Position numbers and translations under genes: made by a program. Under the pieces are notes generated by a model. The model was not told where the DNA came from. It worked only from the letters and a program-made list of their open reading frames with translations, and searched no databases. From contig CM074514.1 in assembly GCA_037379345.1 (NCBI GenBank), positions 2,790,001 through 2,854,000 on the forward strand: DNA of 64,000 bases, in the 5' to 3' direction. This document shows positions 15,801 to 54,800 of this stretch, one piece after another. This DNA is from Perna viridis. Lineage: Eukaryota. Every line of letters starts with the position of its first letter. Positions within the stretch are counted from its first letter, which is position 1.

Positions 15801-18800
15801 TCTTGAAGAAAGAGATAATTCATATGTTAAAATGTTGTATTTTACCAGTAAGTTTAAGGACAAGTCAATTGAAGAGAAATGAGGCATCTTTGTATAGATT
15901 TTTTTTAACAAAAATTAAAGGTTTTTATTATTATTATTATTTTTTTTTATTATTTTTTTTTTAAATTTTTTTTTAGCTTTTGTTTACTAAAATTCTGAGA
16001 TAATTAATAAATTATTTGTTAATTATAATTTTTGTTACAGTGGAAAGAAATTTTTATATAGTTTTTATTATTTTCAGTCGTCTTCAATGGAAATGGATGG
16101 TGAGGCTGTCAGAGAACTTAGAAACAGGTCATCACTGATAAAAGAACACGACATTGGTATAAATTTAAAATATGTTGCTTGTTTTATTTATGACAATACT
16201 GATGTAATGGGAGAGCATGATTTGCCTCACAAAATTATCGAATCCTAGACTTCTCGGTGACAAGCCAGCGACAAAACCTATTCGGCTAAAGAATTTAGCC
16301 AAGTTAATTAACTGGCTATTTAAGTCTCATTACTACTACAATGCAGGTAGACTGTCCTGCCACATTTCCCCCACCTTAAAAGTCTTCGTACTATGAATGA
16401 CTTTTAATACTAGCTATCAGCTAACAAAACCCTGTGGGCTTTTTAGTCAGCTGCCCAATGTAACAGAAGAGCATGATTTGACTCACAAAATTATACTCCG
16501 CCACTGAGGATTGAACCCTAGACTGCTCGGTGACAAACCAGCTATAAACAGATTTGGCTGAAAAATTAATCCTTTGGCCAAGTCAATTAACTGGCTATTT
16601 AAATCTCACTACCTACTACAACTCAGGTAGGCTGTCCTGCCACACTGAAATTGGCGTTTTCATGGTAATTGTGCCATTGGGAATATATCCTTTTGTATTT
16701 ATTTCTGATCAGACTCAATCAGTACTTGATTGAGAAAAAAAAGCAACACTTTCATGAGAAAATTTTTACAATGTCGTACCAAATTTTTATGGGATATTGT
16801 GCCGTTTATGGAATTTTTTTTCATATGTTTGTATCTAAGAAGTCTGCCAAAAAATTTATAATGGTAATGGAAACAGGATAGCTTCTTAGAAACATGCATA
16901 TAACTAAAAGATGAAAATGGAGGGATCTCTACAAGGATGAAGGCTGGGATTGATTTTTTGGGTTGTGACTTGAGCCAAGTAAGAATAAGGGGCCAGAAAC
17001 AAGTTGTTTTTTTTTATCTCAATTATTTTAGTAAATGGTTATGATTTTTTTTTAAATTGTATCACAAGTACCATATCCACAAAGGATGGTTTGGATTGAT
17101 ATTTGAGGTTTAGACCTCTATTATTCAGGAATAAGAGGACATAAAGTGCCCTCCTCAATTTTGGTCTTGTTCTTATCCTATGTCAGATATCTAATTATGA
17201 TCAATAACTGTTCTGAATCTAGTATGAATGGTGTGTCCATACTTGCCCTAACTGTTTGGTATTAATCTCTGCAGCCCACATTGAGCTGCACCCTGTGAAG
17301 CATTTTATTTTATCCTGTAATGAAAAAGCAAATGCCTCTCATTTTACCCTTTCTTTAAGCTTACATCAATGCTGTATATTTCAACAATACTCTTAATATT
17401 GTTTTTATTCAGCAGTGAAAAATCAATTAAATTGATTTAAATTATTAGTACATTTAAACAAATTATAATTTATCCCTAATGTGCCTATGATCATTGGATT
17501 GATTTCATTTGTAAGATCTAATGTACAAGGAATCCCATAGAATATTGTAGAGAAATCTCAATGTTTCAGTTGTGCAAGACAGAGTGCAGCAAGCTTCCAT
17601 CAGACTTACAGATGTGGCAGATACGGTGAAAGGTGATTGGGTGATGTTAGCTCAACAGTTAGATGTGTCTTCTTCAGAAATAAATGACATTAACAACCAG
17701 TATAAAACAGTTAATGACCAAGGACTTGCCATGTTACAACTCTGGGTTGATAAAGATACTCAACCTAATAAAGGTCAGTATACAAAGATAATGTCATGTA
17801 TTCTACCCAAACAAACAGTTAATGACCAAGGACTTGCCATGTTACAACTCTGGGTTGATAAAGATACTCAACTTAATAAAGGTCAGTATGAAGAGACAAA
17901 ACTTAGTGCTAAATCAGATGGAGTGATAATCTGCTGAATATTCTGGTTCAGTTTTGTGGAATTAATTACCCAGTACATTATGTAATATTTCAAAGACAAA
18001 TTGCTTTAAACATAAAATTGAGCTGTATTTGATTGACATGTGATTTATGTTTTAACAAATATAGCTGTGTATTCTATGACAATAATACACATTTGTGTTG
18101 GTAACTTTTGTTTTGTTATGTTTTGTTTGTTTTTTCTTGTACTGTTTTGTCATGTTTGTAAACAGACTTATGTGTATATAATTCGGTCTCCATTTGTATT
18201 ACATGAGAGCCTCAGGAAAGATTAGTTGTTGTAAACTAACGGTGTTACCCTCTCAAAATAAAGTCTATTATTATTATTATTATTAGTGAAGAGAGATGAA
18301 ACACATAGAAGTACATTGATCTACAAACAGCTTATCAATTTTTTAAAATTTTTTTTCTGTGATACCCACAAAAGAGTTAAATGCTCTCTATATATTGGAA
18401 TCACTTCGTTCATCATCACTCTTTGATTTTTGTCATAATTATCTACGCTACCAATAGATGGATCAATCTTGTTGGTGACTTTATAGATATATTATATGGG
18501 TGTTGTAGTATATCAACTCCATGGGACTTGGCCATTTATCACAACATAGAATGATAAGGAAAATTTTTGTCACAATAATCTTCTTTCCTATTTGATGGAT
18601 TTATTTCAAATTTGGTGTGTGGCTTAAGTAGATGTGGCACATGTTGTAAGTATTTACATATCCCTTCTCTACTGATGACATATAGTATGAGAAAACATAT
18701 TTATTGTGAACATAGAGTTGTATAAAGTCATAATAAGGTCATTATTCAACTCTGTAAAGATATAAAAAATTTTTTATGTAGGCCAAGTGCTAGAGAAAGC

Positions 18801-33800: not shown

Positions 33801-36800
33801 AAAGCAGTTACTGTTTATAAATAAGATTTTAATGCCAGTTGATATTTGTGAAATTTTATCTTATGATATCATTGAAAACCTTTTTCCATTTACTTGAGGC
33901 TTCTTAGATTGCTTGCAGATAATGTCTCCATATAAAGAATAAATACTCAGACACAACAATTTGCTTCCTATCAGTTCAGGTCAATATAAACACTGCCATA
34001 CCAATATAATGGAAGCAGGTTGTTGTGATTCATTTACTTTTTGGTATATCCGTCAATACTTTCTTAGTTTTCTTTGTGTATTTGCTGTGTTGGTTAATAT
34101 AACAGAGAAAACTAGGATTTGAATGTACTTATCACATGGAGGTAGAAGAAAAGCCATGCTTGTAAAGTTAACTACCACTCACTCTCAACATAATTAGATT
34201 GGAATTTGAAGAGAAAAGATCACTGCTTAGTTTACTGACATATCGGCTTTGGAAATATTGTCTGTTTTTAGTAGTTAACTTTACAAGTTAAAGGGTACCG
34301 TATAAACTAAAATACAATATGTCATCAAGATGAAAATGACATACAGTTAAAAAGTTTGATGAGATTTAAAATGCATGCAGTTAATGAAAACTTTGTAAAC
34401 AAGAAGTGAAGGCTAATCCTGGTTTTGATTGGTTTTCAGACTAACTGTATTTCAGTACAATAAATGCAACTTTTTGACTGTGTTTCGTGTTCTCTTGGTA
34501 AAATATTTTGCATGTGTTATATATTTGTGTTTATATTGGAAGAACCTTTTGTCATTACTTAGCTTTTGCACTGTGTTTGTGGCATTACTCCAATAAAATT
34601 GGATCAAGCATCTCATTTTTGCCTTATTTTGGTTGGCCATCTGCTTTGCTCATTGGAATGGCTGTCCAGTCACTGCTCAAGGTCAAAGTTGTTCGTTTTC
34701 TAGGTCACTCTTATTATAATCTTATTTAATGTAAACTTTCATTTTGTTTGGCATATTTATTTTCTTTGTTTAAAATTGAAATGAGGTGCTTAAATTGCTA
34801 GGTGTAACGAAGCTCAATGATTAAAAGCTAATTCAAACGGAATTCACATTTTCCCCTTTTTCTGGTGTCTCATTATTTTGATGTTTTAGTGTTTGATCTG
34901 TGACTTTCTGGACACCTAGCACAATGAGCAAATTAGACTGTCATCCTTTCCTTTGTTTCATTACTTTACATTTATTTTGCTTGCTTCTTAACCTGTGTTC
35001 TTGCATGTGACATTGTTTTGTGAATCTTGGTTTGATGAGCTCTTTTGAAATTTTGGATAAACTTGATTTTTGTTTGAATTTATTTGTTTTTGTTTTTGTT
35101 TTAACAGTATACTTTGAAATTTTGTTACTAAATTAGTTTATCTAAGAGGAAAGAAATCTAATCCGTTTTCAATTGTACAGATTGATATGTATTTTTTCTT
35201 CGTCTAAAGAACAATATTACACTGTTAAAATGCTATTGATAGTGAACATTCTAGTGCATTATTTATGGTTGTTTCTATGGTAACTAATTGAGCAGTTTGA
35301 TTGGACAGTTCCTTGGATATCCCAGTAGTTGATTCTGATCTGTAGTGATTGTCTGATTTTTTGGTTGGTTTGTGATGGATAGTGTAATCTTGGAGTGTCT
35401 TTAACAATGAAGGAACCTTGCTGTTGGCTTTGATTAACGTATGCTAGAATTACTCCTCTACGCTCTACATCTGTCGTCATTCTGAAGCTTTTTTCTAACA
35501 TATCATGTTGAGGTAGTGACATAAAAATGAAAAATCAATTATTTCAACAAAATAACAGTGAAAACCTGAGCAATGAGACAAACACATGGAACATTCAAAC
35601 GAGACAATAACCACTACTTAAACATATAGCATCTGAGATCATTATATTGCTAGCAGTCTGTAGTGAACAGCTTTCTTACTTAACCAATCAAGAACTAGCC
35701 TTTAGCTCTTCTAAGTAGCCAGAGACCAGCTTAAATACCAGAGTAGGACGCTGCTGTTAGACAGATCATCTATCATCATGTTTTACTAAATCTATATCTA
35801 TTTGGATTAAAGTATGTATCTTCTCTTTATATTCCTTAAGGACAGAAAAGGATTCAAACTGTTAAGGAATGATGATGTTAATAAAAAATTACTTGGCAGT
35901 AAAATCATCAGGAGAAAACAGAAAATATTTAAGTGTTACAATACATGTATAATGTGAATGTCTTGTATGTTCAAAATCATCAGAAAATTTACTTTCTTTA
36001 TACTTTCTTTTTTTTTGAAATAAAATGCAATACATATTTGCAATATTTCATCATCAACTGCTTAGAATCTTTTTCTGTTCTGAATACTAGCATAGATAGG
36101 GAAGCATGCTTTGTAAGGACAATCTGACGGAAGTAATAGTAGCATGAGTATTCAGAGTTTTCCATCTTCCACTGTTAAGCATGATAGTTTTGATCTGACA
36201 GGGATATTAACAGCATGCTTCCTTTCCATCTTTAGCAAATCACATCTGAACTTAGAAACTATTTCTGAATAATAACTGTTCCCTTAATTTGGTTGTTTTA
36301 GATGACAACAAAAAAATTGAGCTTTGATTGGGAAGCAGGAAAAGAGAAGTTATTTAATCATATTATGAGTGACAAATATAAATTTTCCAAACAAAACGCT
36401 CTCTCATTGTAGTCATAGATTTTAAAAGAAGCATGTGTATTTCAGTAGGTTGTAAATGGGATTAAAAGTTTCTAAGTCCAGATATATCATGCCAGCATCA
36501 AATATTTCTATGCCAAAAATAAACATAAATATATGAATAGGCAAACATGCAATCCTGTGTAGTATGAGTTTGTATGAATGCTTGTAATGTATCGTCTAGC
36601 ATGTCCATCATGTGTTGTCTTGGCACTGTTTAATTATTGCACTGATTCAAATTTCAGGTCCATTGATCCGGGAGAATATTGTCCAAGTAGAGACATCATT
36701 ATCAACATCAGCAGCTCCTCCTACTGGCAGTGTAGAGAGTGATGTTAGACAGGTAATATCAGAGGATGCCACCACTGTCCAGAAACAAAATCCTCAAACT

Positions 36801-39800
36801 GGGCACGTGGAACCTAATATGGTACAGTTGGTAGAAAGTCTTAGAGAAGATCTCATGCCTGAGGACCATAAGAATCAACAACCAGAAACTAGAAAACGTA
36901 AAATAACAGCATCGTCAAAGTCATCATCATCATCATCATCTTCATCTGATTCCGAATCAGAAAAGGAAGTAGATGGAATTCCACAGGAAACCACCAAAGT
37001 TGTAATCAGAGAAGAGGTTATTAAGATATCTCCTGAAGATCAATATAAGCCTACTTTGCCATCTGAGTCTGAGTCTGAACAGAATCCAAGTCAACAGATA
37101 TCTCCTGAAGATCAACATGAGCCTACTCTGCCATCTGAGTCTGAATCTGAACTAAAACCAAGTCAACAGGAACAATCTACACAACAAGTACTAGATGAGA
37201 AGGTCAAACCTCAAAGATCCAGATCTTTATCCTCCTCTTCATCATCATCTAGCTCAGATGAAGAAAAAGATGATAGAGCTGCTAATGATGAACTAAAAGC
37301 CATGGAAACTGAACCTGCTGTTATTCAAGCAGATGATAAGAATCAAAAACAAATTGAGATGACAGACGATAGGAAGCCTGTAAGGTCACCTTCTACTTCA
37401 ACTTCATCTGATGAGGAAAAAGAAGAAATGTTGGATGACAAGACAAATGTCAAGGAAGCTGAAACTGTGGTGACTACAGCTGCAGCGGCAAAACCTCAGC
37501 AGATAGAAATCTGTGAAGATAGTAAAGAGGTCATGGAACAGGTCAAACCTGACAAATCTAGGTCACACTCTAGTTCATCTGATGAGGGAAGAAGGGAAGT
37601 TGCAGAAGCAGCAGATGATACTAAAGTTGAGAAAAAAGTTGATGGTATACTTGACCCTCAACCATCTAAGGAAGAAAGACCAAGGTTATCCTCATCTAGC
37701 TCATCCTCATCAGAAGGGGGAACTTCTGTTGATATAAGGGATGAAACTAATAGTGAGGTGGTAACAAAAGAGGTTAAGGGATCCAAACCATCAGAAAGGT
37801 TACCATCAACATCATCAATAAGTTCTGACAAAGCAATAGAAAGAACTGAAGAAACTTTAGATGTACAAAAAGAGAAAATTACAAAGTCTGCAGGGGGTCA
37901 GCCACCTGTTCAGATTTCTGAGGCAGATAAACCTAGGTCAAGGTCATCTTCATCTTCATCTTCAAGTAGCTCAAGTTCAAGTGATGAAGACAAAAGAGAT
38001 AATTCTGGAGTTAGGAAGGAGTTTATAGAAGTAACCAAGACTAACATTGTGACAAATCAAGAACCCACTGCAGAACCTATTATTGATATGCCAACTGACA
38101 GTTCCGATGATGAAGACACAAAACCTGGATGTGAGGTTTCAGTTACCCAGAAAACAGTCATAAAAGTGAAAGAGGAGAGACCTGTCAAAACAGAGAAAGA
38201 AATAGAAGGAATATCTGAAGAAGTTAGGTCAAGGTCAAGTTCTTCCAGTTCTAAAAGTTCAGAGTCATCCAGTGAAGGTCAAGATAGCAGTACTAGAATC
38301 TTAACCCAGGTGGAGAGACAAGAGAGATTTGAGACTGTGAAGAAGACAACATTTACGGGACGGTATGGAGCTAAGGATTTATCTGAGACACCAGGTATTT
38401 GATATTGCTGTATTTTGACCAATGGTTGTGATTTAAGTCAAATGTAAGGCAGAAAAATGTTGTGCTGTATTTACTCAGTGTGTATTTGTCTTCCAGCATC
38501 CAACAAGATTTTACACAATTAAATTTGGGCATTTCAAGAAGTTTGAGTTTGAACTATTTTTTGTGAAATTAAAGCCCTCCAAACCTACTGAAGCAATATA
38601 AGTTGCCAAAGAATATGATTTTCAAATTGTAAGTTATAAAAAATCTCTGCCATAGAAATAGGTGTCCAACCTAAAATTCAGTAACTACTTATCAAATGTG
38701 TATTTTTGTGGAGTTAATTTCCTTTAAATCTAACTTCTTCTATGAGAACATTTAATCTTAGTCTATTAACACTTTGGTTATATATCTTTCAATGACTTTA
38801 TGATTTTCTGATGTCTTCCTAACTTTCTACATTATTTGTAATCAAGATGCATCTTATATTGTATATCAATTTATACTTTAATATAACAATGATATAATGT
38901 TGATCTGCAATGGGTTGGTGATGATATATGTAAACATGATGACTAAATAAGAAGCATTTGTAAAGGGAAACTACTGGTACTTGAATGTTCTTTTTGATTT
39001 GACTCAATGGTCTATTTAGGATGATAGAATCTCTGAATAGCTTGCTTTCAACAACTGTACAGCTTTTGCTATAAAGATAAGTAAAATTGACATTAAAAAA
39101 AGAGGGATTCACTAGCTTTTTACACAGCAAATTTTACTGAAACACCAGATGGTAAATCAGTTTAATTGAAAAATGCATTAACTTGTGTGTGATGATATCC
39201 AGTGAAACATAATAAGTGATTAGGAATGTTTTTAGAATTTGTTTTAGAATTTGCATTATTTTATGGATTGGTTTTAGGGAAAGAGTGGTTTGTGTTCAGT
39301 TGTGCTTATTGGTTACATCAAAATCAAGAATTTTTACCAACACACTCCCTGTCTAATTAGGGTTTGACTTTGTGGTTCTGCTAAACATTATGACTGCTAT
39401 AGTTTAGAGCATGATTTCTTTGTTAATGTGTAGCTTTGTCTATTATCTGGTCAGTTACTGTTGTTGTTGCCTACCTCTGTCAAATAGATCTAACTATATG
39501 GGGCATGCAGATAACTTATACAGCTAACAACTCTGGGAAGATTCCAGTCTTAAGCGGTTATGTGAAGCTCCCTGACTATCAGCTGTACTTACTATTCATT
39601 CAAATATGTAAGGTAATAGACAAGAATGTTCCTACATAACTGTAGGAAGCATGTTGATATAGACTGTACTTGTATATCTGGAGGATCCTGTATCTACATA
39701 CTCAACTGTTTCTCAACTGTATCATACTTGATAATTTATGGTATACTTGCACATTTTATCAGCAGAAGAGGTTTTTATTGAAGATACAGAAGATATTGGG

Positions 39801-51800: not shown

Positions 51801-54800
51801 AAATATTGGTCAACAAAGGACAGACCTATGAAGTCAGTGAAATAATAGAGGAGCACTACCCAGGGCAAAGAATTGATGTGTTACAGGAAATTAAACCAAC
51901 AGAAACAATAGAACAATCCAAACTTGAAGAAATAAATCAACAAGAATTGTTCACTCTTACACAGGAAGAAATGATGTATACTGAGAAAATTGATGATCTT
52001 AGTCCTCAAGATGAGGTTATACTTAATGTTCATGAGAGTGATGAAATGCAAAAACCAGAGGAAAAGTTTGATGAGCTACACACAACTCAACAAGAGGAGA
52101 TGATGTTCACAGAGAAGGCTGATACCCTCAGTCCAAAAAGTGAACCTGAAATACTAAGTCATGCTGAAGAGATGGCCCAAATTGAACCTGATCATTTGTT
52201 AACAACAACACAAGAAACTGTTTACACTGAAGAGGCTGAAGACTTGAGTGCAGAAAAAGTTGATTATTCTGTTGAAAAAATTGCATCATTGGAAATTCAA
52301 GCAGTTCCTTATGAACAATCAGAAAAACTGAGCCCTGAAGAAAAAGAGATTTCTGCCCCTAAAGAGGAGGTTATAAAATTAAGTCCAGCAGAAATTCAGG
52401 CAATACATTTTGAACAACCAGATGTCACCAAAGAAATAATTAGTCCGGAGGAAATGGAAGTTCCTGCTCCGAGAGAAGAAGTTATTGAAATATGTCCTGT
52501 AGAAATTAAACCATCAGTAAGAGTTCAATCGGAAGAAATGATCTTTCAGTTGGATGATGTACAAAAACCTGAAGAAGAGACAATACAATTACCAACTAAA
52601 AAATCTGATGTTGACAAAGAAATGTCTTCATCCTCCACAATGTCTGATGAGGACTTGGTAGAAAAACCTCACAGAATTTCATTTTCTGAAGATGTAGATC
52701 CTCCCAAACCAGTCATGGAAGAAGTAGAACATACTATGGAGGCTCCAGAGGTGGATTCAGCTCCTGGAATGTTGAGTAGAGTAGAATCAGACGAGAAACA
52801 GGTATTTAAGAGTAACTCTAGGGAACAACTAATTAATTTGTCCTCTGTTTCATCTAATGCTGATCTACAAGAGGAGATAATTGACATTGATCAGTACCCA
52901 ACTGTTCAAAATAGGATAGACTACAGCCTTCAGCAAGTTGCTGACGAGGAAATGTTTGGTATCCCGGTTGACTTTGTTGCCAGAAAGAATAGTGAGAGTG
53001 ATGTGAAAGCAGAAGAATCTGGTGCACATGTTATTGATGTCATAGAACCAGCTGAACAGGTTGAGGATTTAGAAACGGGAATACCTCCTGAATCAGAAAC
53101 AGGTCTCCCAGCCAAATACTACCAGGATGCTGTAAGTGATGCTGTTTTGTTTAACATGTTACAAGAAGGTGGTAAAGTGGATGAGATACGAGCATTAATG
53201 TCTGATGATACACACAAAATGGAACTAGCTTGGGAACCTCCATCTAAGAAATACACAGATGAGGAAGAAGCAAGAGTACACTTAGTTGAAAAGAAAGTGG
53301 CTTATGATGAGAAACATGACATATTAGAGAGAAAAGAGCATTATAAAGATGGTGAAATGGAGAGTTGTGATGTAAAAAAGGAAGAATTTCGTAAAACTTT
53401 CTCTGCAGAAATAACAAAGGACACATCAGTTGAGGATGTATCATCCTCTAAATCTCTAGATATTGGGGATAAATCATATGGAGTTGAGGAAAGACAACAA
53501 AAGGTTGTTACTGATGATCAGGCTATTGCCAATCTGAAAACTAAGAAAACTGAACATGAATTTCATGCTATAAAACCTAAAGATTCGGATATTGAAATAC
53601 AAGAGACTGAAAAGAAGGAGTTACTTGATGAAACATTTGAAATATCTGTAAAATCTGATATTGAACTCAAAGAGACTGAGAAAAAAAAAGATGGACAAAC
53701 TGATGAATTGATCCATGAAGAGTCTGAACAAACTGTCACTAAAGAAACAAAAAAGGTTGTAGTTGAATCTACAACTGATCAGTTAGAATATAAAGTAGAC
53801 AAAGATAATGAAAAAATAACTAAAATCCTTGATGAACAAGTTACAGAGAGATCTGAAATTAAAGTAGAGGAAGAAAAAATTGATAAAATTAGAAAAATTG
53901 AAAAGATGGATTCTCATGATGAAATAGAAAAATTCATTGATCATAAAGAAATAAAGGAGGAGGTAGATCGTGATGCCACAATTGAGACTGATGTCAGTGA
54001 CAAACATGTTGTCAAATTTTTGTCTGAAACATCAGAAATCCTTGAAGAGGGTGAAGTTATTATAGAACCAAGTATTGATAGAATGGAGAGATTCTTGTAT
54101 CTCCCTGACGATACTGATCCTACTAAACAATTTGATACAAAAACAAGGGAGGATGACTTAACTGGAGAATTTCATGGTGATAATGATGAAGAATTTTTTG
54201 ATAGTCAGCCTGCGGGTGGCAATAGTGATGATGAAGGATTTGGTCCTTCAGATACCCCGCAACAATTAGACAGGGGAGAGTCGGTTGAAAATGATGACTT
54301 TGAGTTTTCACGAAAATTATCGTCTGCTGAGGTAGATGAACTTGAACATGAATTGAGAATGGAACAAACTGAACTGGAAAAAATCATACAGACAGTGAAT
54401 GAAGGCACAGGGACACCACAGAGTGACCGACCATTATCTCCCAGCTCTTATACTCTGGAAACTGACACTGATGTTGAAGCTAGATCTTATGAAAATGAAG
54501 AATTGATGGATGAAAATTTTGACATCTCTCAACAAATATTCATAGAACAAAAAATAGAGTCTCAAAAGCAGCAGCTTGCAAGACCACCTTCACCATCAGA
54601 CTTCACATTGATCACTTCACAAGACCAGGAAGCCCTGACAAATCTTCTAGGTCTGGACAAATCAGAGCATGAGCCACCTCTGCATGATCAAGGTAGAGTC
54701 TGTTTAGTAATATGTATGATCATCACAAATGCTTTTTTAAAAATCCAATTTTAGTTCTTTTTGTTGTTAGTGGATTTTGTTACATAGAATCTGTGAAGTT

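What the first reader, a model, noticed from the sequence alone, without database searches (positions are those of the whole stretch)
16203..16644. Complete miniature LTR retrotransposon whose LTRs carry a tRNA-Asp-like Pol III cassette
Seen: two LTRs (162 and 186 bp, TGT..ACA), exact CTGA target-site duplication, and a 94-bp core with PBS-like TGGGCAGC and a PPT on the minus strand. On the minus strand the LTR reads tagccgaatagg (A-box-like), ttgtcac (GTC anticodon-like loop) and gggttcaatcc (B-box), ending ggcggag, resembling tRNA-Asp. The left LTR has lost part of the B-box arm. Established: plant Cassandra TRIMs carry 5S RNA in their LTRs. I recall tRNA-in-LTR families (Ajax) reported from molluscs, which needs verifying. 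Inference: a Pol III-driven SINE/LTR hybrid that parasitises an autonomous LTR element.
Basis: partly seen in the sequence, partly recalled or inferred. Interest (0 to 1): 0.7.

Follow-up and report, generated by a model that had tools for sequence, protein, structure and literature searches.

The report
Mussel Helenus mini-retrotransposon with Gypsy hybrids
This is an old, decayed copy of a tiny gene-less jumping element with a tRNA-like stretch in each end repeat, a kind already described in mussels (Helenus); sister copies fused to one Gypsy retrotransposon family point to the likely helper that moved it.

Summary
The element is real: two LTRs (186 and 162 bp), a 94-bp core, and a 4-bp target duplication, lying antisense in an intron that RNA reads splice out. 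It belongs to a dispersed family (at least 311 LTR ends). It is a Helenus TRIM (Kojima 2024), not Ajax, and by eye is homologous to published mytilid Helenus-1 families. The tRNA likeness is weak and sequence-level only, and the Asp isotype is not supported. This copy is likely dead: neither LTR keeps both Pol III boxes and the primer site matches 6 of 11. New here: (1) one sister copy carries 60 of 62 bases of antisense host tRNA-Lys-CTT exactly at the primer site, a likely fossil of priming; (2) seven loci join the LTR end of one Gypsy family to the Helenus core (outer 4-bp duplication exact in 3, 3 of 4 bases in 2, not assessable in 2), which points to that family as the helper; (3) a second, 8-base match to the primer's T-stem follows the primer site. 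Pol III transcription is not shown. The scan has noted Helenus-type elements before in other genomes.

The parts
16199..16202 (.). 4-bp target-site duplication, left
   Evidence: CTGA on both sides
16645..16648 (.). 4-bp target-site duplication, right
16459..16644 (-). 5' LTR, 186 bp (family length)
16496..16567 (-). tRNA-like segment of the 5' LTR: A box mutated (16549-16560), GTC-containing loop (16530-16536), B box kept (16508-16518); the start at 16567 is inferred from the usual 7-base offset to the A box
   Evidence: not detected in this copy by the host-tRNA models
16487..16490 (-). run of four T just after the tRNA-like segment; predicted leaky Pol III stop (inferred)
   Evidence: element position 155; a T-run follows the B box in 50 of 66 LTRs
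16365..16458 (-). 94-bp non-coding core
   Evidence: no ORF of 100 aa or more overlaps the element
16447..16457 (-). decayed primer-binding site for tRNA-Lys-CTT (6 of 11; 27 of 36 family cores match 10 or 11)
16433..16440 (-). decayed second match to the primer tRNA's T-stem, nt 48-55 (6 of 8 here; 7 or 8 of 8 in 27 of 36 cores); function predicted only
16365..16377 (-). polypurine tract
   Evidence: (same 14 last bases in 23 of 36 cores)
16203..16364 (-). 3' LTR, 162 bp, with 7-bp and 17-bp deletions
16239..16295 (-). tRNA-like segment of the 3' LTR: A box nearly kept (16277-16288), B box cut by the 17-bp deletion (remnant 16239-16245)
16157..17569 (+). host intron that holds the element (GT..AG), in an ankyrin-like gene
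   Evidence: 57, 76 and 74 spliced reads in three RNA runs of one study; Pfam Death domain in the next exon
16078..16156 (+). host exon ending 46 bases before the element
   Evidence: read ends and joint

Best explanation
The element is an old, mutated copy of a gene-less LTR retrotransposon family of the Helenus kind, which likely was transcribed by RNA polymerase III from the tRNA-like boxes in its LTR and likely was copied and inserted by the proteins of a co-resident Gypsy family using host tRNA-Lys-CTT as primer. Shown: two LTRs, primer site, polypurine tract, 4-bp duplications, hundreds of dispersed LTR ends, weak tRNA-like sequence on the sense strand, a primer-tRNA copy at one primer site, and Gypsy-Helenus hybrid insertions. 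Inferred steps: Pol III starts near LTR base 78, sometimes reads through the four-T run in the 5' LTR and stops at the same run in the 3' LTR, giving an RNA with about 80 repeated bases at its ends; that RNA is packaged with Gypsy RNA; the primer pairs through 11 bases plus a second 8-base box; the Gypsy integrase accepts the DNA because both LTR types begin TGT and end in the same 11 bases. This copy has lost a working 5' promoter and primer site, so it is likely inert and is removed with the intron.
For: Family and duplications: 71 exact LTR-primer junctions, control 0; 311 exact LTR ends, control 0. tRNA likeness: a sequence-only model built from 7 host tRNAs hit 43 of 50 LTRs in 25 loci on the sense strand at E<=10 (22 at E<=0.05), with 3 antisense and 1 flank hit; alignment scores to host Lys-TTT, Thr-AGT and Asp-GTC lie 3.3-3.8 SD above dinucleotide shuffles. 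Primer: 27 of 36 cores match 10-11 of the 11 last bases of host tRNA-Lys-CTT plus CCA; locus L133 holds an antisense tRNA-Lys-CTT copy, 60 of 62 bases, starting at the primer site between a 5' LTR and a normal core. Helper: 7 of 43 matches span a Gypsy-LTR/Helenus-core junction; outer duplication exact in 3, 3 of 4 bases in 2; that family has RT, RNase H and integrase in Gypsy order, Ty3 RT as best solved relative, 4-bp duplications and the same primer site. Literature: PMC10886601 (whole text and supplement parts 1, 5, 6, 7, 10 of 11 read).
Against: No tRNA call by Rfam in the window copy or 19 loci or by ARAGORN at default or 90% threshold. With the cloverleaf model LTRs reach at most 18 bits against 48-80 for real host tRNAs. 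The window copy scores in neither model. The boxes are not clearly better conserved among copies than the rest of the LTR (non-CpG variation 0.022-0.034 against 0.031-0.049), as expected for copies decaying neutrally. Three RNA runs show family reads on both strands, more antisense than sense, with no start or stop piles, so Pol III transcription has no direct support. The energy gain of the second primer box was matched by 17% of shuffles. At least six other LTR families with the same primer site exist in the genome, one a young Gypsy, so the hybrid-forming family need not be the only helper. The tree of Gypsy LTR pieces does not exclude one origin of the hybrids.
Confidence: 0.85

Rival explanations
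1. An ordinary Pol II TRIM: the tRNA-like boxes are a relic that no longer drove transcription when the family spread.
For: No cloverleaf; no sense-strand start pile in RNA reads; a four-T run in the 5' LTR would stop much Pol III transcription short (PMC5725217 abstract: T4 is a minimal terminator, full efficiency needs six T, in human cells).
Against: A and B boxes sit at tRNA spacing in most LTRs (56 and 41 of 66 for the strict patterns), and the same boxes are kept in the published mytilid relatives while the sequence between them differs (by eye). The RNA libraries are not known to keep short uncapped RNAs.
Confidence: 0.12
2. The Gypsy-Helenus hybrids arose at DNA level (recombination or repair at the roughly 24 shared bases around the LTR end and primer site), not inside shared particles, so they do not name the helper.
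For: All junctions lie in that shared stretch; two of the three loci with exact duplications have Helenus ends on both sides; hybrid LTR pieces cluster more than shuffled labels and one origin is not excluded.
Against: At C9 a Gypsy 5' LTR and a Helenus 3' LTR share an exact duplication, and at C11 3 of 4 bases; the seven loci lie on six contigs; 11-24 bases is short for homologous recombination (general knowledge); in L141 the first junction carries an 18-base primer site, the length expected when the primer is copied to its A58 stop (PMC8599865 abstract, for HIV-1).
Confidence: 0.2
3. The LTRs carry a tRNA-Asp-derived or functional tRNA gene.
For: TGTCAC is in 56 of 66 LTRs and the segment ends like host tRNA-Asp; by eye Helenus-3_MyGa also has an Asp-like loop.
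Against: Median scores Lys-TTT 50, Thr-AGT 49, Asp-GTC 44 among 8 host types tried; the A box is Lys/Thr-like; closer published relatives have other loops (by eye); stems do not pair.
Confidence: 0.05

Closest known systems
Helenus-1_MoPh / Helenus-1B_MoPh (Modiolus philippinarum), Helenus-1_LimFor, Helenus-1_MyCo, Helenus-3_MyGa (Kojima 2024, PMC10886601, Data S1, Table S1, Fig. S2C)
   Same: LTR length 186 as in Helenus-1_MoPh; 4-bp duplication; tRNA-Lys-CTT primer site. By eye: first 36 LTR bases match Helenus-1_MoPh at 32, last 18 at 16-17; the first 23 primer-region bases of Helenus-1_MyCo occur exactly in 7 of 24 genome hits; core 3' end matches at about 24 of 28.
   Different: Shorter core (94 against 113-115 for MoPh), different sequence between the boxes; host not identified here beyond a likely mytilid mussel; no helper, hybrid or primer-fossil evidence in the text read.
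Cassandra (plants) and Ajax (nemerteans)
   Same: [quoted passage not shown]
   Different: They carry 5S, not tRNA, sequence; Ajax makes 5-bp duplications and uses tRNA-Leu.
biv-TRIM (Satovic et al. 2019, PMC6934838, passages)
   Same: Bivalve TRIM with solo and tandem forms.
   Different: No canonical primer site was found in biv-TRIM; this family has a clear one.
Drosophila gypsy two-site primer binding (Gabus et al. 2006, PMC1635307, passages) and Ty1/Ty3 bipartite sites (PMC5371799, passages)
   Same: Same 11-base tRNA-Lys primer site plus a second site pairing with the T-stem side of the primer.
   Different: In gypsy the second site lies at the far end of the genome and was not needed for cDNA synthesis; here it lies 3-5 bases after the first and is untested.

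Membership tests
Helenus (animal) | TRIM under 1000 bp, two LTRs, no coding capacity | tested here: met
   442 bp here; 458-475 bp in the other two-LTR copies; no ORF
Helenus (animal) | tRNA-derived sequence in the LTR with box A (TRGCY, YGG) and box B (GGTTC) | tested here: met
   Family level: 43 and 48 of 66 LTRs; host-tRNA model hits 43 of 50 LTRs on the sense strand. The window copy has neither LTR with both boxes.
Helenus (animal) | Primer site complementary to a tRNA 3' end, and polypurine tract | tested here: met
   27 of 36 cores match host tRNA-Lys-CTT at 10-11 of 11; primer fossil L133
Helenus (animal) | 4-bp target-site duplication | tested here: met
   21 of 30 loci exact, none 5 bp
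Mytilid Helenus-1 lineage | Sequence homology to the published families | tested here: inconclusive
   Strong by eye; no computed alignment, so identity over the whole element is not measured
TRIMp3 | Transcription by RNA polymerase III | not testable with these tools
   Available RNA runs show no start piles and may not keep such RNAs; also untested for Helenus in PMC10886601
Ajax / Cassandra | 5S rRNA-derived sequence in the LTR | tested here: not met
   No 5S match in Rfam scans at E<=10
Functional tRNA-Asp gene | Cloverleaf recognised by tRNA models, best isotype Asp | tested here: not met
Ty3/Gypsy (helper candidate L124 family) | RT, RNase H, integrase order; Ty3-like RT; 4-bp duplication | tested here: met
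   the copy examined is broken by stops in several frames

The most novel reading that the evidence does not exclude
The genome records the helper of a tRNA-promoter TRIM directly: Helenus RNA was packaged with one Gypsy family that shares only the last 11 LTR bases and the primer site, strand transfer between the two RNAs gave hybrid insertions, and a two-part primer site plus a leaky four-T stop form the small cis-code that lets a Pol III transcript use LTR machinery.
Probability: 0.5. Interest if true: 0.55.

Novelty: new member of a known kind. Interest (0 to 1): 0.38.

Why it matters
The element class is in print, so the window copy alone is ordinary. The value lies in the sister copies. 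[quoted passage not shown] Hybrid insertions and a primer-tRNA fossil give a simple way to read helper and primer from genomes, which could be applied to every Helenus, Ajax and Cassandra family. Template-switch hybrids among plant non-autonomous elements are already reported (PMC13570524, passages), so the principle is not new.

Tried and rejected
Rfam scans of the window copy and of 19 loci gave only chance hits. ARAGORN found nothing at default or 90% threshold; at 80% and 70% it gave 56 and 134 inconsistent calls, rejected as noise. Empty site: four DNA runs (three studies) all hold contigs across both junctions and none of the 15 joints shown skips the element, but 98 joints were not shown and contigs drop rare variants, so absence of an empty allele is not shown. 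No RNA holder on record was listed. RNA reads gave no start or stop piles. The first helper search (19 hits, 17 distinct places) found several same-primer LTR families, among them a young Gypsy (LTRs 98.9% alike) with no sequence shared with the TRIM beyond the ends; it is not the hybrid-forming family. None of those 19 loci has the 8-base second primer box within 190 bases, and the pattern for that box listed 24 hits, all of TRIM-like form, 6 checked. A search for further primer fossils gave 2 hits: L133 itself and L140/L141. The tree of 20 Gypsy LTR pieces is mostly unresolved, and 6 of its rows share one flank. The Cassandra paper PMC2311327 is not held. Paper searches for TRIM/helper hybrids listed one unrelated paper each; the library lacks most subscription journals. 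Search of earlier notes by sequence gave one unrelated bacterial note.

Full report
Observation. The window holds, on the minus strand, a 186-bp LTR (16459-16644), a 94-bp core and a 162-bp LTR (16203-16364), bounded by CTGA on both sides. The LTRs are 86.3% alike. The element lies antisense in a GT..AG intron (16157-17569), 46 bases after a donor; 57, 76 and 74 reads in three RNA runs of one study (19-25% of each run read) splice it out. The next exon encodes a Death domain; that the gene is a giant ankyrin rests on this and on motifs I recall. The host is likely a mytilid mussel, inferred from the element's relatives only.

Family. A search of the own genome gave 812 candidates, 40 scored, 48 matches. 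Of 30 loci fetched, 21 scored an exact 4-bp duplication (one on an extrapolated end), 4 more match 3 of 4 bases, none 5 bp; three are tandem arrays of 3-6 LTRs. Exact motifs give lower bounds of 311 LTR ends and 71 LTR-primer junctions, controls 0. Among the first 30 LTR-end loci one is a solo LTR with an exact duplication. LTR pairs of 27 two-LTR elements are 86.3-97.3% alike, median 92.5%, the window copy lowest; CpG columns vary 17% against 3.7% elsewhere. No very young copy was among those examined. Four DNA runs hold both junctions of the window copy.

tRNA likeness. Rfam found no tRNA or 5S match in the window copy or 19 loci, nor did ARAGORN at default. Using host tRNAs, median local scores of 62 full-length LTRs were 50 (Lys-TTT), 49 (Thr-AGT) and 44 (Asp-GTC), 3.3-3.8 SD above shuffles, with antisense scores at shuffle level; five other types gave 1.4 SD or less. 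A sequence-only model from 7 host tRNAs hit 43 of 50 LTRs on the sense strand (best E 5e-4), 3 antisense, 1 flank (counted from the table; copies are not independent). The cloverleaf model gave LTRs at most 18 bits, against 48-80 for held-out host tRNAs. So the segment is a degenerate promoter-like relic, not a tRNA, and its isotype cannot be fixed. The window copy scores in neither model.

Primer. 27 of 36 cores match the last 11 bases of host tRNA-Lys-CTT plus CCA at 10 or 11 positions; the window copy at 6. Locus L133 (C7) has, between a 5' LTR and a normal core, an antisense copy of that tRNA from its CCA end to base 15, 60 of 62 bases (50 for Lys-TTT), starting exactly at the primer site. 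I read this as plus-strand synthesis that ran past the usual A58 stop (shown for HIV-1 in PMC8599865, abstract) and then mis-jumped; it is one locus. Three to five bases after the primer site lies an 8-base complement of the same tRNA's bases 48-55 (7 or 8 of 8 in 27 of 36 cores; an 8-mer match anywhere in the tRNA arose in 1.0% of 20,000 shuffles, but 17% of shuffles matched the energy gain). By eye a similar motif follows the primer site in many published Lys-primed Helenus of mussels, oysters, scallops and wasps. The word 'bipartite' does not occur in the main text of PMC10886601. Drosophila gypsy has a comparable second site, dispensable for cDNA synthesis (PMC1635307, passages).

Helper. 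L141 (C1) has Helenus LTRs at both ends with an exact duplication, but inside: an 18-base primer site, Gypsy leader and gag, the end of a Gypsy LTR, then a Helenus core. The Gypsy part is 78-90% like a broken element at C12 (L124) with 1031-bp LTRs, RT, RNase H and integrase in Gypsy order and Ty3 RT as best solved relative. Its LTR starts TGT, ends in the same 11 bases as the Helenus LTR, is followed by the same primer site and makes 4-bp duplications. A search across the junction gave 7 spanning loci among 43 matches (40 of 308 candidates scored), on six contigs. Outer duplications: exact at C9 (Gypsy 5' LTR, Helenus 3' LTR), C1 and C4; 3 of 4 bases at C11 and C3:38.65 Mb; not assessable at C3:58.76 Mb and C10. 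The simplest reading is strand transfer between co-packaged RNAs before integration. Against over-reading: two of the exact cases have Helenus ends on both sides; most junctions carry the Helenus-length spacer, so the crossover step is not fixed; the tree does not exclude one origin; and other same-primer families exist.

Transcription. A four-T run follows the tRNA-like segment in both LTRs (50 of 66 LTRs); only 1 of 26 elements has a five-T run in the transcribed span. T4 is a minimal, partial Pol III stop in human cells (PMC5725217, abstract). A full-length template would need read-through of the first run and a stop at the second; this is inference. RNA reads over the 5' LTR come from other copies, run both ways (sense 10-25, antisense 23-52 deep) and show no start piles; they neither support nor exclude Pol III.

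Comparison. Kojima 2024 (PMC10886601; whole text and supplement parts 1, 5, 6, 7 and 10 of 11 plus two searches) defines Helenus as TRIMs with tRNA-derived LTR sequence, lists 51 bivalve families with 4-bp duplications, and reserves Ajax for 5S-bearing nemertean elements. By eye the family is homologous to the mytilid Helenus-1 group; no alignment was computed, and Repbase was not available, so this exact family may already be named. A search for Helenus with retrotransposon since 2024 listed 4 papers; I read passages of two others, which add no helper evidence for Helenus.

Verdict. A new member of a known kind, and a likely dead copy. Interest comes from the sister loci that point to primer and helper: 0.38.

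Noticed in passing
L133:595-653 (G000:C7:44477894-44477952): Antisense copy of host tRNA-Lys-CTT, 60 of 62 bases with the CCA end, inserted at the primer site of a family copy; likely a fossil of read-through of the primer.
   Followed up: yes
L141 (G000:C1:58899166-58901784); also C9:42.195-42.199 Mb, C11:24.465-24.466 Mb, C4:12.271-12.273 Mb, C3:38.65 Mb, C3:58.755 Mb, C10:9.71 Mb: Seven Gypsy-Helenus hybrid insertions involving one Gypsy family.
   Followed up: partly
L101:1501-1870, L107:1501-1980, L115:1501-1618, L163:5221-7356: Four insertions with an inverted LTR so that the LTR 3' end faces outward on both sides, each with an exact 4-bp duplication; likely aberrant reverse transcripts that still integrated.
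   Followed up: partly
L161:7901-9120 (G000:C3:38.651 Mb): A second non-coding element: about 280-bp core with a Lys primer site and an LTR 68-70% like the Gypsy helper's, joined in tandem to a Helenus copy.
   Followed up: no
L126/L082 (G000:C5:5268701-5276343): Young Gypsy element, 1332-bp LTRs 98.9% alike, 1460-aa pol frame, 4-bp duplication, tRNA-Lys-CTT primer site; near-identical starts at C1 and C8.
   Followed up: partly
L167, L168, L169, L171, L173, L174: One solo Gypsy LTR with the same flank at six loci, so it was spread inside another repeat.
   Followed up: no
window 16939-17004 and 17221-17316: Two pieces of another high-copy, transcribed repeat in the same intron; reads from other copies skip about 220 bases between them.
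   Followed up: no
window 17705-17899: 108-bp tandem duplication of the end of the Death-domain exon; RNA reads leave at 17774, so the second copy appears intronic.
   Followed up: no
window 36600-38402, 47846-54754: Very long single-exon frames (600 and 2302 aa), as in giant ankyrin isoforms (recalled).
   Followed up: no
G000:C6:28.99 Mb, C8:20.32 Mb, C9:4.45 Mb, C10:41.64 Mb, C15:17.65 Mb: Long tandem arrays of tRNA genes (Lys-TTT/Met, Thr/Gly, Lys-CTT-type, Asp/Arg).
   Followed up: no
window 16555-16600 (LTR bases 45-90): Palindromic stretch just upstream of and overlapping the A box; by eye many published animal Helenus LTRs have a hairpin at this place.
   Followed up: no
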